This document shows, piece by piece, positions 1 through 33,283 of a stretch of 42,681 nt of DNA. The notes beneath the pieces are model-generated. The model saw only the letters and a list, made by a program, of their open reading frames with translations. It ran no database searches and was not told the DNA's origin. A program made the position numbers and the translations under genes. The DNA comes from Nitrospirota bacterium (lineage in GTDB: Bacteria > Nitrospirota > Thermodesulfovibrionia > Thermodesulfovibrionales > UBA9159): assembly GCA_037442785.1 (NCBI GenBank), contig JBBIPQ010000003.1:1-42681 (forward strand), given 5' to 3'. The number at the start of each line of letters is the position of its first letter. Within the stretch, counting starts at the first letter, position 1.

Positions 1-109
1 AAAGGCGACACCTTAATGTAAGCTGTTAAATGACCTATTATCACCATAAAATAATCTCAAAAGACATTCATAACCTCATCCTATCTTTAAATAAAATCCC
101 GTCGCTACT

Positions 110-146
110 GGGGTCCCCAAAAAATCTTCGACTTTTTGGGGTGCCC
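110..146 (+). repeat. Palindromic repeat element, copy 1 (intergenic, followed by a T-rich tract)
   Basis: GGGGTCCCCAAAAAATCTTCGACTTTTTGGGGTGCCC. CCCCAAAAA (115-123) pairs with TTTTTGGGG (133-141). It matches the copy at 16213-16249 at 30/37 positions and the reverse complement of 26814-26850 at 30/37. The downstream sequence gctttcttttgtgttttt is T-rich. Confidence 0.8.
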
Positions 147-302
147 GCTTTCTTTTGTGTTTTTGAGGTCTTATGCCCATTTAAATAACCTCTGTCACTT
201 TATTTTGGACAGCAGTGTGTTTTATCTTTTTCGATATGCCGAATCGTCTATTATGAGACTCAGGGAGTTTTTTATTAATGCCTTTCTATTATATAATAAA
301 AT

Positions 303-3096: not shown

Positions 3097-3693
3097 ATGA
3101 ACAAGGCTATTGCAAATAGATTATATCTGATAATAGTTGTTGTATCCTCAATCACGATAGGCTTTGTTACAGGTTATATCGTTGGTAGTAGAACTGCCCA
3201 ATCAACCAGGACCGCTTCTATTAGCTCGGAGGATAGGAAGATCGAAAGTGCGGTAGTTTCCCATACCCCAGGGGAGCAGAAAATCGAAGGTAAGGAGATG
3301 CTTCAGTATAATCCCGAATCCCAGCCCCAGAGCCCTGATTCTGGAGTCCAGGGTTTACGGCCTGATGAAAAAAAGCATGTTGAAAAGAGAGATGTAAAGA
3401 CAGAGGTTCAGCCATTGAGACCTAAACAGGAGGAATCCGTCAGTGAAATATCTCAAAAGGGAATCTATGCTGTTCAGGCTGGTGCCTTTAAGGATAAAAA
3501 GGAGGCGGATATATTAAAGACAAGACTCGAGAAAAAAGGGTATAATAATATATACATAGCTAAGGAGTCGAAAAAGGGGAGCAGTCTCTATAAGGTCAGG
3601 ATCGGTGATTTCGAGACAAAGAGAGAGGCTGACCTCTTTGCAATAAAGCTCAGCAAAAGCGAAGGGCTTAGCGCCTTTGCAGTGAAAAAGTAA
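3097..3693 (+). CDS. SPOR domain-containing protein (membrane-anchored peptidoglycan binding)
   Basis: N-terminal transmembrane helix, a low-complexity linker, and a C-terminal SPOR-type fold sequence YAVQAGAFKDKKEADILKTRLEKKGY...YKVRIGDFETKREAD. Confidence 0.8.
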   Translation: MNKAIANRLYLIIVVVSSITIGFVTGYIVGSRTAQSTRTASISSEDRKIESAVVSHTPGEQKIEGKEMLQYNPESQPQSPDSGVQGLRPDEKKHVEKRDVKTEVQPLRPKQEESVSEISQKGIYAVQAGAFKDKKEADILKTRLEKKGYNNIYIAKESKKGSSLYKVRIGDFETKREADLFAIKLSKSEGLSAFAVKK

Positions 3694-3713
3694 TTTGAAA
3701 GGATGGGGTTTAA

Positions 3714-15232: not shown

Positions 15233-15327
15233 GCCATGGCCTCCTTTTTTTGATGATGTGAATTTCTATCATAGTTTTTCAGGGTTTGTCAAGAAAGAAT
15301 TTCAACTATCTGTGTTATTATTTAGTT

Positions 15328-16974
15328 ATGAAACCGAATATGATGGATTACAGGGTGGAATACAGTAGATTTCACCTTCAGGTCCCTCAAGAATTCTCTT
15401 TTCCCCTTGATGTGTTTGACAGATGGGATGGGAATGCCCTTTTCTGGACAGACGGAGAAAAAGAGAGGATTTATTCTTTCAGGGAATTAACTGTGCTTTC
15501 CTCTAAGGGCGCAGGTGCCCTGATGAAGGCTGGTATTAAAAGGGGGGATAAGGTAATAGTAATGTTACCGAATATCCCAGAATGGTGGGAGATCATGCTT
15601 GCCCTTATGAGGCTTAATGCTATACCTATTCCGGCTACCACCCTATTAACGGCAAAGGACATAGAATACAGGGTTTCTACTACAGATATAAAGGCAATAG
15701 TCATTACTGATGAAGATCTCTTAAGGATAGAAGAGACTATCAGGAAGCACGATGTAATGGTCATAACGATCGGTAAGGGAATGGGAGATATGGATTATAT
15801 AAGGGAGAGGGATAAGGCAGATGCCTTCTCAGGAGATAGGACTGGCTCGGATGAACCAGCTATTATCTATTTTACATCAGGGACGACAGGACCACCAAAG
15901 ATGGTATTACACACCCAGGCATCATATCCCCTTGCCCATATGATCACAGGCAGATACTGGCTTGACCTGAGACCCGGTGACCTTCACTGGAATGTGTCAG
16001 ACCCTGGATGGGCAAAGGCTGCATGGTCAAGCCTCTTTGGGCCATGGCATATGGGTGCAACTGTTTTCTCCTTTTACAGAAAGGGAAGATTTGATCCTTA
16101 TCTTACGATAGAGATCATGAAGAGATACAATATAACGACCTTCTGCGGACCTCCAACCGTTTACAGGATGATAGCTAAGGATATACTTTCAGGAGGGAAT
16201 GCCCTCATGACCGGGGCCTCCAAAAAATCAAAGATTTTTTGGGGTGACCTTCCGGTAAGGCACTTTGTTGCAGCTGGAGAACCCCTTAATAGGGAGATAA
16301 TAGAATTATGGAAGGAAAAGACAGGTCATTTCATATACGATGGATATGGACAGACCGAGACGGTTAATGTGCTTGCAAATTTTCGGTGTCTTCCGGTGAA
16401 ACCAGGCTCAATGGGCGTTGTTGTTCCTGGATTTATCGTTGATATCATCGATGAGGATGGTAAACCTTTGCCTGCTCGGACGGAGGGGGATATTGGCATA
16501 AAGGTCTATCCGGAAAGACCAGCGGGGCTATTCAAGGAGTATCTCGGAAATCCAGAGGCAACAGAGAAGACTATCAGGGGAGAATGGTATGTGACAGGGG
16601 ACAGGGCATACAGGGATGAGGATGGTTACTTCTGGTTTGTTGGAAGATCAGATGATATAATCCTCACCTCAGGCTACAGGATAGGCCCTTTTGAGATAGA
16701 GAGTGTCCTCATTGAACATCCCGCTGTGAAGGAGTCGGCTGTTACAGCCAGTCCTGATGAGATAAGAGGTGAGGTCGTTAAGGCCTTTATTGTCCTGATG
16801 GAGGGGTATTCTCCTTCAGAGGGACTTGTGAGGGACTTACAGGAATTTGTTAAGGCTCGTACAGCCCCATATAAATATCCGAGAAAGATAGAGTTTGTGG
16901 AGGAACTGCCAAAGACGATAAGTGGAAAGATAAAAAGGAAGGAGTTGAAACTAAAAGAGTTTCGAAGGGATTAA
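15328..16974 (+). CDS. AMP-forming acyl-CoA synthetase/ligase (medium-chain type)
   Basis: AMP-binding motif YFTSGTTGPPK, then YGQTE, GDRAYRDEDGYFWFVGRSDD and PKTISGKIKRKEL. I preferred the ATG at 15328 over the TTG at 15286. Contains an in-frame palindromic element (16213-16249). Confidence 0.9.
   Translation: MKPNMMDYRVEYSRFHLQVPQEFSFPLDVFDRWDGNALFWTDGEKERIYSFRELTVLSSKGAGALMKAGIKRGDKVIVMLPNIPEWWEIMLALMRLNAIPIPATTLLTAKDIEYRVSTTDIKAIVITDEDLLRIEETIRKHDVMVITIGKGMGDMDYIRERDKADAFSGDRTGSDEPAIIYFTSGTTGPPKMVLHTQASYPLAHMITGRYWLDLRPGDLHWNVSDPGWAKAAWSSLFGPWHMGATVFSFYRKGRFDPYLTIEIMKRYNITTFCGPPTVYRMIAKDILSGGNALMTGASKKSKIFWGDLPVRHFVAAGEPLNREIIELWKEKTGHFIYDGYGQTETVNVLANFRCLPVKPGSMGVVVPGFIVDIIDEDGKPLPARTEGDIGIKVYPERPAGLFKEYLGNPEATEKTIRGEWYVTGDRAYRDEDGYFWFVGRSDDIILTSGYRIGPFEIESVLIEHPAVKESAVTASPDEIRGEVVKAFIVLMEGYSPSEGLVRDLQEFVKARTAPYKYPRKIEFVEELPKTISGKIKRKELKLKEFRRD
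16213..16249 (+). repeat. Palindromic repeat element, copy 2 (in-frame inside the acyl-CoA synthetase CDS)
   Basis: GGGGCCTCCAAAAAATCAAAGATTTTTTGGGGTGACC. It has a perfect 10-bp stem CCAAAAAATC/GATTTTTTGG and is 30/37 identical to the copy at 110-146. It encodes ..TGASKKSKIFWGD... Confidence 0.85.
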
Positions 16975-25856: not shown

Positions 25857-25865
25857 TTAAATAAG

Positions 25866-27826
25866 ATGCTGATAGAAGATATAAAGTCTCCTCTGATTTA
25901 AAGAGCCTCGGGATAGAAGAACTGAAAATCCTTGCTTCTGAGTTAAGAGACCTTATCATTGAAAGGGTCTCGATTAATGGTGGCCATCTTGCATCGAATC
26001 TTGGCGTTGTTGAGCTTGCAATAGCACTTCATTATGTATTTGATTCCCCCCGTGATAAGATCCTCTGGGATGTGGGGCATCAGTCCTATCCCCATAAGCT
26101 GCTTACAGGGAGGTATAAAGAATTCCATACCCTCAGAAAATATGGCGGTATCTCTGGTTTTCCAAGGCTCAAGGAGAGTCCCCATGATGCCTTTGGCACA
26201 GGCCACAGTTCCACCTCCATATCTGCTGCAACAGGCATCATCGTGGCAAGGGACATCCTTAAAGGGATTCAAGGTTCAGGATTCAAGGTTCAAAATCCCA
26301 ATAAGGTCATAGCAGTAATCGGCGATGGTGCAATGACCGCAGGCCTTGCCTTTGAAGGACTCAACCATGCGGGGCATCTTAAGAAGGATCTCATCGTTAT
26401 ACTTAACGATAATGAGATGTCCATCTCACGGAATGTTGGCGCCCTATCATCCTATCTTAACAGGGTGCTGACGAGCACATTTTATAAGAGATTTAAGAAA
26501 GAGACAAAGGCCTTTCTTGAGAATATCCCTAAGATAGGACAGTCAGTCGCAAGGATTGCCCAGAGGGCAGAGGGCAGTATGAAGGGATTTTTCCTCCCTG
26601 GTGGCCTCTTTGAGGACCTTGGTTTCGATTATATAGGGCCCATAGATGGCCACGACATCGAACTTCTCATAGTGACCCTCAGTAGCATAAAGGATGCCCG
26701 TGAGCCAACCTTAATCCATGTAGTAACAACAAAAGGGAAGGGGTATAAATTCTCAGAGGAGGACCCCTGCGTTTACCATGGGGTAGGTCCTTTTGAGGTA
26801 TCTGAAGGTGTAAGGGCACCCCAAAGAAACGAAGATTTCACAGGGACCCCTGTACCGTGTGAAAGTGAATCAATGGGGTCAGAGATGACCTTCAGTGAGG
26901 CCTTCGGTCTTATTGTCTCGGAGATGGCTGAGAAGGATGAAAGGATTGTTGCAATCACTGCAGCCATGAGGGAGGGGACAGGGTTAAACCTTTTTGCAGA
27001 GAGGTTCCCTGATAGATTCTTTGATGTGGGGATTGCGGAGCAGCATGCGGTGACCTTCGCAGCTGGTGTTGCCCTTCAGGGGCTGAGGCCAATCGTGGCT
27101 ATTTATTCAACCTTCTTGCAGAGGGCCTATGATTCAATAATCCATGATGTCTGTCTCCAGGGTCTGCCTGTGATATTTGCAATCGACAGGGCCGGGATAG
27201 TTGGTGAGGACGGGGCAACCCATCAGGGTCTCTTTGATATTAGCTATTTGAGACATATACCGAACATCCTTATAATGTCACCAAAGGATGGAGACGAGTT
27301 GAAGGCCATGATAAGACTTGCCCTAACCCATGATGGCCCTACAGCCATCAGGTATCCCAGGGGAAAGACCCTGTATTCAGGGAAGGATATACCTGTTATG
27401 ATGGGAAAGGCAGAGGTTCTCATTGAAGGAGATGACTTGGCTATCATTGCTGCTGGTAATACCGTTTATCCATCCATGAAGGCAGCAGAGATGCTAAGGG
27501 CAGATGGAATTAATGCATCCGTGATTAATGCCCGTTCTATAAAGCCCCTTGATATGGAGTTGGTAGCCTCTGTTGCCATGAAAACAGGACGTATCGTTAC
27601 TGTCGAGGAGAATGTGCTTGCTGGTGGCTTTGGCTCATCTGTTCTCGAATCCCTTAACAGGATCGGTCTAAGGGATGTGATTGTAAGGATGATAGGTATA
27701 GATGATATCTTTGTGGAGCATGGCCATCAGGCCGTGATCAGAAAGAAGCTGGGCCTGGATGAATCGGGTATTTATGGAGTTTGTAGGTCTCTATTAGTAG
27801 GGGAGCCTCTCAAATTTGACTTATGA
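25866..27826 (+). CDS. dxs: 1-deoxy-D-xylulose-5-phosphate synthase, with an apparent 1-nt frameshift at codon ~10-11
   Basis: The ATG at 25866 gives MLIEDIKSPLI then a stop. The frame entered at 25895 gives DLKSLGIEELKILASELR...GGHLASNLGVVELAIALHYVFDSPRDKILWDVGHQSYPHKLLTGR, then IGDGAMTAG and the rest of Dxs to 27826. The ORF-track start (GTG 26072) would remove the conserved N-terminus. Confidence 0.88.
26264..26299 (+). repeat. 36-nt in-frame mini-insertion in dxs: 14-nt tandem duplication flanked by a 6-bp inverted repeat
   Basis: GGATTCAAGGTTCA occurs at 26265-26278 and again at 26279-26292. It is flanked by GGGATT (26264-26269) and AATCCC (26294-26299). The segment is exactly 12 codons (GIQGSGFKVQNP). 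Confidence 0.75.
26814..26850 (-). repeat. Palindromic repeat element, copy 4 (decayed, inverted, in-frame inside dxs)
   Basis: The reverse complement GGGGTCCCTGTGAAATCTTCGTTTCTTTGGGGTGCCC matches the copy at 110-146 at 30/37 positions with no gaps. It encodes RAPQRNEDFTGTP in the Dxs linker. Confidence 0.75.
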
Positions 27827-27884
27827 TCTCATTATATGTTAAAAAATATATCTTGATATTCGCACTATTTCTGGAGGTGGAATA

Positions 27885-28196: not shown

Positions 28197-28212
28197 AACT
28201 TGAGGAGGATAT

Positions 28213-28482
28213 ATGGCACATAAAAAGGGAGTTGGTAGTTCTCGGAATGGAAGAGACAGTGAATCTAAGAGACTGGGGGTTAAGAGATTTGGCAACGAGT
28301 TTGTCCGGGCTGGCAATATCATAGTTAGACAGAGGGGCACCCAGTTTTACCCTGGTCTGAATGTTGGAATGGGAAGGGATTACACTATATTTGCAAAGAT
28401 TGATGGGTTTGTCTCTTTTGAGAGAAAGGGGCGTAGTGGTGTAAAGGTGAGCGTGTATCCCAAAACCCTTGTTGAACAGTAG
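28213..28482 (+). CDS. rpmA: 50S ribosomal protein L27
   Basis: [24 protein letters not shown] is the canonical L27 N-terminus. Confidence 0.96.
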
Positions 28483-28524
28483 AGAAGCTTTCGACTATTG
28501 CTCAGATAGATAAATTAGATAAAT

Positions 28525-28555
28525 AAAAGGCGGTTAAGACCGCCTTTTATTTTTT
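28525..28555 (+). terminator. Rho-independent terminator after rpmA
   Basis: Stem AAAAGGCGGT (28525-28534) / ACCGCCTTTT (28539-28548), loop TAAG, followed by the T-tract TTTTATTTTTT. Confidence 0.8.
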
Positions 28556-33231: not shown

Positions 33232-33233
33232 GC

Positions 33234-33268
33234 GGGTCCCCAAAGAGTCAAAGACCTTTTGGGGTGCC
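33234..33268 (+). repeat. Palindromic repeat element, copy 3 (intergenic between the decarboxylase gene and speE)
   Basis: GGGTCCCCAAAGAGTCAAAGACCTTTTGGGGTGCC. It shares the GGGTCCCCAAA...TTTTGGGGTGCC ends with copies 1 and 2. It starts 3 nt after the TGA stop and ends 2 nt before the AAAGGAGG RBS of speE. Confidence 0.8.
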
Positions 33269-33283
33269 TGAAAGGAGGATCCT

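What the first reader, a model, noticed from the sequence alone, without database searches (positions are those of the whole stretch)
26814..26850. A decayed, inverted copy of the same palindromic element lies in-frame in the dxs inter-domain linker
The reverse complement of 26814-26850 (GGGGTCCCTGTGAAATCTTCGTTTCTTTGGGGTGCCC) aligns without gaps to the copy at 110-146 at 30/37 positions, with the terminal GGGGTCCC and TTTGGGGTGCCC blocks intact. The palindrome itself is eroded by 4-5 stem mismatches. That is what one would expect if an old insertion is now constrained only at the protein level. It encodes RAPQRNEDFTGTP inside VSEGVRAPQRNEDFTGTPVPCESESMGSEM. From memory of E. coli Dxs, this stretch is roughly 15 residues longer than the corresponding linker between HxVxKFDP and the SYxxxFG motif. 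A second independent in-frame copy makes coding-sequence colonisation by this repeat family much more credible.
Basis: partly seen in the sequence, partly recalled or inferred. Interest (0 to 1): 0.6.

Follow-up and report, generated by a model that had tools for sequence, protein, structure and literature searches.

The report
Decayed palindromic repeat inside dxs linker
A short hairpin-forming repeat that is scattered about 100 times through this Nitrospirota genome once landed, in frame, in the floppy linker of the essential enzyme Dxs and has since drifted like neutral DNA; this is a known kind of event, clearly documented here.

Summary
The reverse complement of 26814-26850 matches the copy at 110-146 at 30/37 positions. 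Ten simulated genomes of the same size and composition reached at most 25/37. A weight matrix built from 73 other copies scores the site 26.3 bits, against a simulated maximum of 15.1.

The family is real, with about 100 copies in this 2.0-Mb Thermodesulfovibrionales-type MAG. About a quarter of them lie deep inside real genes, in frame (Mfd twice, MurE, an acyl-CoA synthetase and others).

The dxs copy is shared by two relatives, whose Dxs is 98% and 86% identical. The 86% relative carries a differently decayed version, so the common ancestor held a near-canonical element. The two versions are 65% identical, the same as four-fold degenerate sites of dxs (66%), which indicates neutral drift. 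The hairpin is lost (-8.6 versus -20 kcal/mol).

Sister lineages and same-genus genomes lack the element. Their linker is already expanded and shows no detectable similarity to it. The insert lies in the disordered loop between domains I and II.

Coding copies are not generally more decayed than intergenic ones. I found no RAYT-type transposase in this assembly.

An earlier follow-up in this scan had already described the family from the copy at 16213-16249. This is a new member of a known kind (intragenic REP-like or RPE-like insertion).

The parts
26814..26857 (-). Decayed copy of the palindromic element. The core is 26814-26850 and a 7-nt tail (26851-26857) matches the CTAC-side flank of a subfamily. 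It is read in frame on the + strand as (R)APQRNEDFTGTPVP.
   Evidence: 30/37 to the copy at 110-146, and 44 nt at 80%. PWM score 26.3 bits against a simulated maximum of 15.1. Local alignment to the 45-nt consensus was reached by 0 of 2000 shuffles. Orthologous copies exist in L058 and L057.
25865..27826 (+). [quoted passage not shown] The true ATG at 25867 is out of frame because one T is missing near 25889.
   Evidence: ORF list and translation. PDB Dxs hits with E = 5e-171. The 98%-identical P0002 starts MLIEDIKSPSDLKSLG, and its DNA has TCTCCTTCTGAT where the window has TCTCCTCTGAT.
26735..26875 (+). Inter-domain (I to II) linker of Dxs, predicted disordered. The element-derived residues 308-321 of P0001 lie inside it.
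   Evidence: AlphaFold2 on a 50-sequence alignment gives residues 281-327 a pLDDT below 50 and no secondary structure. [quoted passage not shown]
110..146 (+). Near-canonical intergenic copy used as the reference. It sits at the centre of a longer composite repeat of about 190 nt with inverted ends.
16213..16249 (+). Well-preserved in-frame copy inside the acyl-CoA synthetase gene (15286-16974), encoding GASKKSKIFWGD.
   Evidence: PWM score 53.6 bits with 12/12 stem pairs.
33233..33269 (+). Intergenic copy between two + strand genes.

Best explanation
Window 26814-26857 is a molecular fossil. A near-canonical copy of a 37-45-nt REP-like palindromic element inserted into dxs in the common ancestor of this genome and of the lineage that carries P0003. 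The family core is GGGCA-CCCCAAAAAATC-NNN-GATTTTTTGGGG-ACCCC. It has about 100 copies here and a patchy spread among Thermodesulfovibrionales MAGs. The copy landed in the DNA that encodes the disordered loop between Dxs domains I and II. It survived for two reasons. The element has no stop codon in the frame used (the A-run and T-run arms cannot make stops), and the loop tolerates extra residues. Since then it has drifted at the neutral rate. The hairpin is gone and the peptide is not conserved; only the open frame is kept. It most likely has no function of its own today. Shown: family membership, in-frame position, orthologous decayed copies, absence from sister lineages, neutral rate, and location in a low-confidence or disordered loop. 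Inferred: that the event was a transposition-like insertion rather than a recombinational patch, that part of an older expanded linker was lost at or after the event (net +5 residues against sisters), and what mobilises the family.
For: - **Match above chance:**
- **Family size and covarying stems:** for example CCCCAGAAAATC..GATTTTCTGGGG and CCCCAAAAAGTC..GACTTTTTGGGG.
- **Orthologous copies:** L058 (Dxs 98% identical) has the identical 37-mer. L057 (Dxs 86% identical) has GGTCACCCCAAAAATTAGGAGATTTTTCTAAAATCCC at the same codons, with a PWM score of 20.5 bits.
- **Ancestor close to consensus:** over 41 comparable positions, 4 departures from the family consensus are specific to L001, 9 are specific to L057, and 4 positions changed in both (3 to the same base).
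- **Neutral rate:** L001 and L057 are 24/37 (65%) identical in the element and 66% identical at 250 four-fold sites of dxs. The neutral expectation is about 8 changes per lineage, and 4-5 and 9-10 were observed.
- **Restricted to one clade:** the Dxs tree groups P0001, P0002 and P0003 (SH-aLRT 99). The sister group P0007/P0010, the same-genus genomes G001 and G002, and the basal P0016 have linkers with no similarity to the element (shuffle p >= 0.17).
- **Disordered location:** AlphaFold2 gives pLDDT below 50 for residues 281-327, and the E. coli alignment has a gap there.
- **In-frame insertion is common in this family:** 26 of 107 sites are coding-interior. Comparisons with same-genus orthologues show clean insertions in MurE (+18 aa) and Mfd (+15 and +14 aa).
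Against: - No exact empty site is available. The nearest lineages without the element already have a linker of 26-28 residues with different sequence, so the event cannot be reduced to a simple insertion of 37-45 nt. The net difference is only 15 nt.
- The sister relation of P0007/P0010 to the element-bearing clade has only moderate support (SH-aLRT 89, quick tree).
- No transposase that could explain mobility was found in this assembly: PF01797 gave no hit at 90% completeness.
- The window's own dxs has an apparent frameshift at codon 10. Strictly, then, 'in frame in a working gene' is shown for the 98%-identical relative and not for this assembly.
Confidence: 0.85

Rival explanations
1. Older insertion. 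The element entered dxs at the base of the whole expanded-linker clade (linkers of 23-32 residues). The linkers of G001, G002, P0007 and others would then be the same insertion decayed beyond recognition and shortened by 15 nt. The G000 clade copy would look young because gene conversion from other genomic copies refreshed it.
For: All 14 members of that clade have an expanded linker at the same spot, against 19 residues in the basal P0016 and 13-15 in typical relatives. L074 and L057 share CGG..TTA G.A GAT at matching codons. With about 100 donor copies, conversion is conceivable.
Against: The linkers of L074, L002, L003 and L076 show no similarity to the element above shuffles (p >= 0.17), and PWM maxima in those loci are 1.2 bits or lower. 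The decay of the L001 and L057 copies fits a single neutral clock starting at about their split, with no need for conversion. The G001/G002 linker sequence is unique in their genomes.
Confidence: 0.1
2. The segment is kept for a function: an mRNA hairpin that modulates translation or decay of dxs, or a peptide that tunes the Dxs linker.
For: The frame has stayed open in three lineages. REPs elsewhere can act on mRNA (PMC3733652).
Against: The hairpin is lost in both lineages (MFE -8.6 and -3.6 against -20 kcal/mol). DNA identity equals that of four-fold sites, and only 5 of 14 residues are shared. Most Dxs proteins lack the segment.
Confidence: 0.03
3. Chance resemblance of a G/C-flanked, A/T-rich linker-coding stretch to the repeat.
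For: The sequence is short (37 nt), and 7 mismatches fall in the stem.
Against: The simulated-genome maximum is 25/37 and 15.1 bits, against 30/37 and 26.3 bits observed. 0 of 2000 shuffles reached the alignment score. An orthologue matches the consensus at the positions where the window does not.
Confidence: 0.01

Closest known systems
Intragenic REPs (repetitive extragenic palindromes found inside ORFs), as catalogued for GTAG- and CGTC-tagged REP families by Di Nocera, De Gregorio and Rocco 2013 (PMC3733652)
   Same: A short (20-40 bp) stem-loop repeat in tens to hundreds of copies. Most copies are intergenic, but a fraction lie wholly inside known genes and add 10-30 residues, several in repair genes (here Mfd twice). 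A subfamily carries GTAG next to the hairpin.
   Different: The lineage (Nitrospirota / Thermodesulfovibrionales) and the sequence are not in that paper; 'Nitrospir' and 'Thermodesulfovibrio' each occur 0 times in its main text. The stem is A/T-rich rather than G/C-rich. GTAG lies 3' of the hairpin on the strand that carries it and is seen in only about a fifth of copies. No RAYT gene was found in this assembly.
Rickettsia palindromic elements (RPE; Ogata et al. 2000, from my own knowledge; RPE-1, RPE-4 and RPE-6 are mentioned in PMC3733652)
   Same: Palindromic dispersed repeats that insert in frame into essential protein-coding genes, are tolerated in surface loops, and then decay.
   Different: RPE-1 is about 100-150 bp; this element is 37-45 nt. 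There is no sequence similarity. The host is a free-living anaerobe lineage, not an obligate intracellular bacterium.
REPIN / RAYT systems (Bertels and Rainey 2011, PMC3116915; Nunvar et al. 2010, PMC2817692)
   Same: A hairpin repeat family with covarying stems, a lineage-specific copy number and occasional adjacent pairs.
   Different: The defining single-copy RAYT flanked by REPs was not found. G000 has no PF01797 hit. Relatives have Y1_Tnp genes whether they hold 1 or 69 element copies, and no element lies within about 1.5 kb of the four Y1_Tnp loci examined.

Membership tests
This genome's 37-nt palindromic repeat family | Sequence match to the family profile above chance | tested here: met
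   PWM score 26.3 bits against a maximum of 15.1 in 10 simulated genomes. 30/37 against a simulated maximum of 25/37. 0 of 2000 shuffles reached the alignment score.
This genome's 37-nt palindromic repeat family | Terminal blocks GGGGTCCC and GGGGTGCCC at 37-nt spacing | tested here: met
   Only two sites in the window fit GGGGTCCC-N15-30-GGGGTGCCC: 110-146 and 26814-26850. 0.00 hits are expected by chance.
This genome's 37-nt palindromic repeat family | 12-bp stem with a 3-nt loop | tested here: not met
   6 of 12 Watson-Crick pairs on the sense strand, and MFE -8.6 against -20.0 kcal/mol. This is expected for a decayed copy. The ancestor inferred from L001 and L057 restores most of the stem (-12.6 kcal/mol).
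This genome's 37-nt palindromic repeat family | Absence from the orthologous site in lineages outside the carrier clade (insertion polarity) | tested here: met
   26 relatives, together with P0004-P0022, lack it. Linkers of the sister and same-genus lineages show no similarity to it.
REP / REPIN mobilised by RAYT | Short palindromic repeat in high copy number, mostly extragenic | tested here: met
   107 sites score at least 16 bits: 58 intergenic, 26 coding-interior and 23 ambiguous.
REP / REPIN mobilised by RAYT | Conserved GTAG (or CGTC) tetranucleotide at the 5' foot of the hairpin | tested here: inconclusive
   GTAG follows ...GGGGACCCCA, or GGGGTA(ATA), in about 12 of 58 aligned copies. 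It lies 3' of the hairpin on that strand, and the other copies have variable flanks.
REP / REPIN mobilised by RAYT | A RAYT (Y1 transposase, PF01797) gene in the genome, flanked by the REPs | tested here: not met
   No PF01797 match in G000 at 90% completeness. Y1_Tnp loci in G002, G006, G023 and G030 have no element in the fetched flanks. An unassembled copy cannot be excluded.
Rickettsia palindromic elements (RPE) | In-frame insertion into protein-coding genes, tolerated in loops | tested here: met
   dxs (this finding). MurE and Mfd twice, checked against same-genus orthologues. 26 coding-interior sites.
Rickettsia palindromic elements (RPE) | Sequence or length class of RPE families, and Rickettsia host | tested here: not met
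   The element is 37-45 nt, and the host is a Nitrospirota MAG according to the titles of related records. No Rfam family matches anywhere in the window.
[quoted passage not shown] | Full-length similarity to solved Dxs structures, with the domain I-II-III order | tested here: met
   2O1S E = 5e-171 and 2O1X E = 3.5e-161, both over the whole length. Precomputed Pfam families on the homologues are DXP_synthase_N, Transket_pyr and Transketolase_C.

The most novel reading that the evidence does not exclude
The family may be more than a REP variant. It could be a distinct, coding-tolerant palindromic mobile element of Thermodesulfovibrionales. On this reading its A-run and T-run arms keep five of six frames free of stops. 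It would move without a linked RAYT and repeatedly hit the same permissive loops. MurE was hit independently, in opposite orientations, in two genera, and the dxs linker is an indel hot spot. The family would then be a recurrent source of loop and linker length variation in housekeeping enzymes, and the dxs relic would be a dated example of that process.
Probability: 0.2. Interest if true: 0.55.

Novelty: new member of a known kind. Interest (0 to 1): 0.35.

Why it matters
In-frame colonisation of essential genes by palindromic repeats is best known from Rickettsia and from a few REP-rich bacteria. This case shows the same process in uncultured Nitrospirota. It also offers something rarer: a copy that can be dated, because two lineages carry differently decayed versions. 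Inside an essential enzyme that copy drifts at exactly the neutral rate. This supports the view that such inserts are tolerated passengers in disordered loops rather than adaptations. In practice it warns annotators that odd linker insertions in these MAGs can be repeat-derived, and it gives a simple marker for relating strains. It does not reveal a new kind of system. The family had already been reported by an earlier follow-up of this scan on the same window.

Tried and rejected
1. **Remnants in same-genus linkers.** I looked for remnants of the element in the expanded linkers of G001, G002, P0008 (L074) and P0016 (L076). By eye there were hints (CCATTAGCG against CCAGTAGCG; GS..R.LSGIE against GSPKDRGFSGVE). 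Local alignment against 2000 shuffles gave p >= 0.17, so I dropped this.
2. **A G001/G002 repeat of their own.** I asked whether the G001/G002 linker comes from another repeat family in those genomes. The 24-mer with up to 3 mismatches occurs only in dxs.
3. **Coding copies more degenerate.** Not supported. The median PWM score is 43 bits for coding copies and 38 bits for intergenic ones (Mann-Whitney p = 0.44), and the median number of stem pairs is the same.
4. **RAYT / IS200-type transposase as mobiliser.** PF01797 was not found in G000. It is present in relatives regardless of element count, and no element lies beside it.
5. **Known RNA family.** No Rfam match at gathering thresholds anywhere in the window.
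6. **Exact insertion boundaries and target-site duplication.** I tried to define these from MurE and Mfd against same-genus orthologues. The net gains are 54, 45 and 42 nt, and flank divergence hides the junctions.
8. **Literature.** A search for this family in Thermodesulfovibrio or Nitrospirae found nothing.

Full report
**1. Observation**

Window 26814-26850 reads GGGCACCCCAAAGAAACGAAGATTTCACAGGGACCCC. Its reverse complement matches the copy at 110-146 at 30 of 37 positions without gaps, and both terminal blocks are intact. A search for GGGGTCCC-N15-30-GGGGTGCCC finds only these two sites in the window, with 0.00 expected in 100 shuffles. The repeat finder extends the pair to 44 nt at 80% (103-146 against 26814-26857).

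The stretch lies in the long open frame 25865..27826 and encodes (R)APQRNEDFTGTP(VP). That frame is Dxs, with hits to E. coli 2O1S at E = 5e-171 and to D. radiodurans 2O1X at E = 3.5e-161 over the full length.

**2. Is it more than chance?**

The whole assembly (G000) is 1.98 Mb in 264 contigs with 43.7% G+C.

- It holds 43 strand-sites with at least 30/37 matches to the 110-146 copy. Ten 3rd-order-Markov genomes of the same size gave maxima of 23-25/37.
- A weight matrix trained on 73 other copies (the dxs site excluded) scores the dxs site 26.3 bits, against a maximum of 15.1 bits in ten simulated genomes.
- A local alignment of the dxs linker DNA to a 45-nt consensus was reached by 0 of 2000 shuffles.

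**3. The family**

About 100 loci carry the core CCCCAAAAAATC-NNN-GATTTTTTGGGG, flanked asymmetrically by GGGGT / TGCCC (on the other strand GGGCA / ACCCC).

- Many copies keep the stem through paired changes, such as CCCCAGAAAATC..GATTTTCTGGGG, CCCCAAAAAGTC..GACTTTTTGGGG and CTCCAG..CTGGAG. The hairpin is therefore under selection, or is copied as such.
- A subfamily continues ...ACCCCAGTAGCG. The dxs copy has ...ACCCCTGTACCG, which explains the 44-nt match.
- No Rfam family matches anywhere in the window.
- The distribution among 30 relatives is patchy, counting core matches with up to 2 mismatches. G000 has 43 and G006 (another genus of the same family) has 69. G023 has 8 and G030 has 4. 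The two same-genus genomes G001 and G002 have one each, and most others have none.
- Exact matches in the public species set fall mostly in MAGs labelled Nitrospirota, Nitrospirae or Thermodesulfovibrionales.

**4. In-frame copies are common**

Of 107 sites scoring at least 16 bits, 26 lie deep inside long ORFs, 58 are intergenic and 23 are ambiguous. The host genes are recognisable: Mfd (two copies), MurE, the acyl-CoA synthetase at window 16213, a RumA-type methyltransferase, a histidine kinase, an RND adaptor and pump, PstA, an SLT transglycosylase and others.

All three frames are used. They give the recurring peptides APQKIxDFLGTP, G[ST]PKNQRFFG[DV]P and GVPKKSKIFWGA. From the sequence itself, the A-run and T-run arms cannot form stop codons, so only one loop-dependent frame can carry TGA.

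I checked three cases against same-genus orthologues that lack the family. MurE gains 18 residues, and Mfd gains 15 and 14 residues, with clean gaps in G001 and G002.

G006 has its own copy at the same MurE site, in the opposite orientation. This is an independent hit at the same permissive loop.

Coding copies are not more decayed than intergenic ones. The median PWM score is 43 against 38 bits (p = 0.44), and the median number of stem pairs is equal. The dxs copy is among the more decayed coding copies.

**5. History of the dxs copy**

*Linker lengths.* In an alignment of 27 Dxs proteins from G000 and relatives, most members of the taxonomic family have 15-16 residues between GPF and the S[YF]xxxFG motif. 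G000 has 33, and G001 and G002 have 28. G023 and G010 have other long inserts, so this loop is an indel hot spot.

At the DNA level G001 and G002 do not carry the element. Only the two ends of the linker (GVR... and ...CE.S....EMTF) are homologous to G000.

*Closer relatives.* A search of the large protein collection found two.

- P0002 is 98% identical and has the same linker.
- P0003 is 86% identical and reads EGLRSPQKLGDFSKIPLRSGSESMSSEMTF, which is the same length as in G000.

Their DNA was fetched as L058 and L057. L058 has the identical 37-mer. L057 has GGTCACCCCAAAAATTAGGAGATTTTTCTAAAATCCC at the same codons, which scores 20.5 bits, again above the simulated maximum. L057 also has canonical copies in the two spacers downstream of dxs, so that organism holds the family too.

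*State of the ancestor.* Over 41 comparable positions, 4 departures from the family consensus are specific to L001 and 9 are specific to L057. Four positions changed in both, 3 of them to the same base. Where one lineage has drifted, the other usually keeps the consensus base. Their common ancestor therefore carried a near-canonical element.

*Rate of change.* L001 and L057 are 24/37 (65%) identical in the element and 66% identical at 250 four-fold degenerate sites of dxs. The neutral expectation is about 8 changes per lineage over 41 positions, and 4-5 and 9-10 are observed. Only 5 of 14 encoded residues are shared. The segment evolves as neutral DNA that must merely stay open.

*The hairpin.* The MFE is -8.6 kcal/mol for the window copy and -3.6 for L057. 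It is -12.6 for the inferred ancestor and -20.0 for a canonical copy.

**6. Polarity**

A quick maximum-likelihood tree of 37 Dxs proteins groups P0001, P0002 and P0003 (SH-aLRT 99). This group lies within a clade of 14 sequences with expanded linkers (23-32 residues). P0007/P0010 is its sister (SH-aLRT 89), P0016 (19 residues) is basal, and the typical 13-15-residue forms lie outside.

The linker DNA of the sister (L074), of G001 and G002 (L003, L002) and of P0016 (L076) shows no similarity to the element above shuffles, with p >= 0.17. The G001/G002 linker is also not a repeat in those genomes.

The recognisable element is therefore a derived character of the G000-P0003 clade. The second refutation test, that close relatives lacking the family have the same linker, is not met.

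What remains unclear is the exact event. Against the sister lineages the net gain is only 15 nt, so an insertion of about 45 nt must have been accompanied or followed by loss of about 30 nt of the older linker. Alternatively, the tree near that node is wrong and the carrier clade started from a short, P0016-like linker (33 - 15 = 18, against 19-20 residues). An older insertion refreshed by gene conversion is a possible but less economical rival.

**7. Structural setting**

The HMMER alignment to E. coli Dxs leaves a 16-residue gap exactly at APQRNEDFTGTPVPCE. AlphaFold2 with a 50-sequence alignment (mean pLDDT 76) gives residues 281-327 a pLDDT of 27-45 with no secondary structure. That stretch lies between the last strand of domain I and the first strand of domain II, and the element-derived residues 308-321 lie in its middle.

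**8. Mechanism and family assignment**

The closest known things are intragenic REPs (PMC3733652) and Rickettsia palindromic elements. The element behaves like both: a hairpin repeat, mostly intergenic, with a fraction tolerated in frame inside known genes, including repair genes.

Membership in the RAYT-mobilised REP/REPIN class is not established.

- PF01797 gives no hit in G000 at 90% completeness.
- Relatives have Y1 transposase genes whether they hold 1 or 69 element copies.
- No element lies near the four such loci examined.
- GTAG occurs beside the hairpin only in a subfamily, and on the 3' side.

How the family moves is therefore open. My working view is hairpin-dependent single-strand transposition by an enzyme acting in trans that is not assembled or not recognised. 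This is an inference and was not tested. Selection then removes every copy that breaks a frame or lands outside a permissive loop.

**9. Verdict**

It is a well-documented example of a known kind of event in a lineage where I found no published description. An earlier follow-up of this scan had already reported the same family on this window, from the copy at 16213-16249.

The new points here are:

- the orthologous, differently decayed copy, which dates the insertion;
- the neutral rate;
- the absence from sister lineages;
- the independent MurE hit in another genus;
- the negative RAYT test.

Noticed in passing
window 25867-25900: The dxs start is out of frame. ATG at 25867 gives MLIEDIKSPLI*, while the main frame opens at 25865 with no start codon before 26072. 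The 98%-identical relative (L058) has TCTCCTTCTGAT where the window has TCTCCTCTGAT, so one T is missing. This is either an assembly error or a real frameshift in this MAG.
   Followed up: partly
window 1-235 (also G000 C69:1690-1880 and 3520-3710, C124, C109, C185, C179, C19): The reference copy at 110-146 sits at the centre of a longer repeat of about 190 nt with long inverted ends (CTGTCCAAGATAAATGTTAAATGGGCATGAGACC ... GGTCTTATGCCCATTTAAAT...TTTTGGACAG). There are at least 8 copies, several at contig ends. It looks like a MITE-like composite that carries the small hairpin.
   Followed up: partly
G000 C28:16022-16058 and L061 (G006 MurE): MurE carries an element-derived insert at the same loop (before GRVITVFGCGG) in G000 and in G006, in opposite orientations. 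The same-genus genomes G001 and G002 have none. These are independent hits at one permissive site.
   Followed up: partly
window 26264-26299: There is a second variable stretch in dxs (GIQGSGFKVQNP). The E. coli alignment has gaps here, and close relatives differ in length and sequence (KKVQDPKFKVQIPN, KKVEADEQGDR, KSIYLDEKDMASVQQNH). It corresponds to another non-conserved surface loop of Dxs, not to the palindromic family.
   Followed up: no
L057:2128-2164 and 2632-2668: The P0003 organism has canonical element copies in the dxs-rplU and rplU-rpmA spacers. The corresponding spacers in the window (27827-27884 and 28197-28553) have none. Element positions therefore differ between lineages that share the old dxs copy.
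   Followed up: no
L031, L049, L051, L054: Single exact matches to the 32-nt element pattern occur in MAGs labelled Chloroflexi, Anaerolineae, Desulfarculus and Oscillospiraceae. This could be mis-binned Nitrospirota contigs or horizontal spread.
   Followed up: no
G000 C51:2889-2965 and C68:8558-8635: Tandem pairs of element copies lie inside ORFs. One ORF has EVSQKSETFGRGS twice. A cytochrome c peroxidase-like protein has two copies just after the signal peptide.
   Followed up: no
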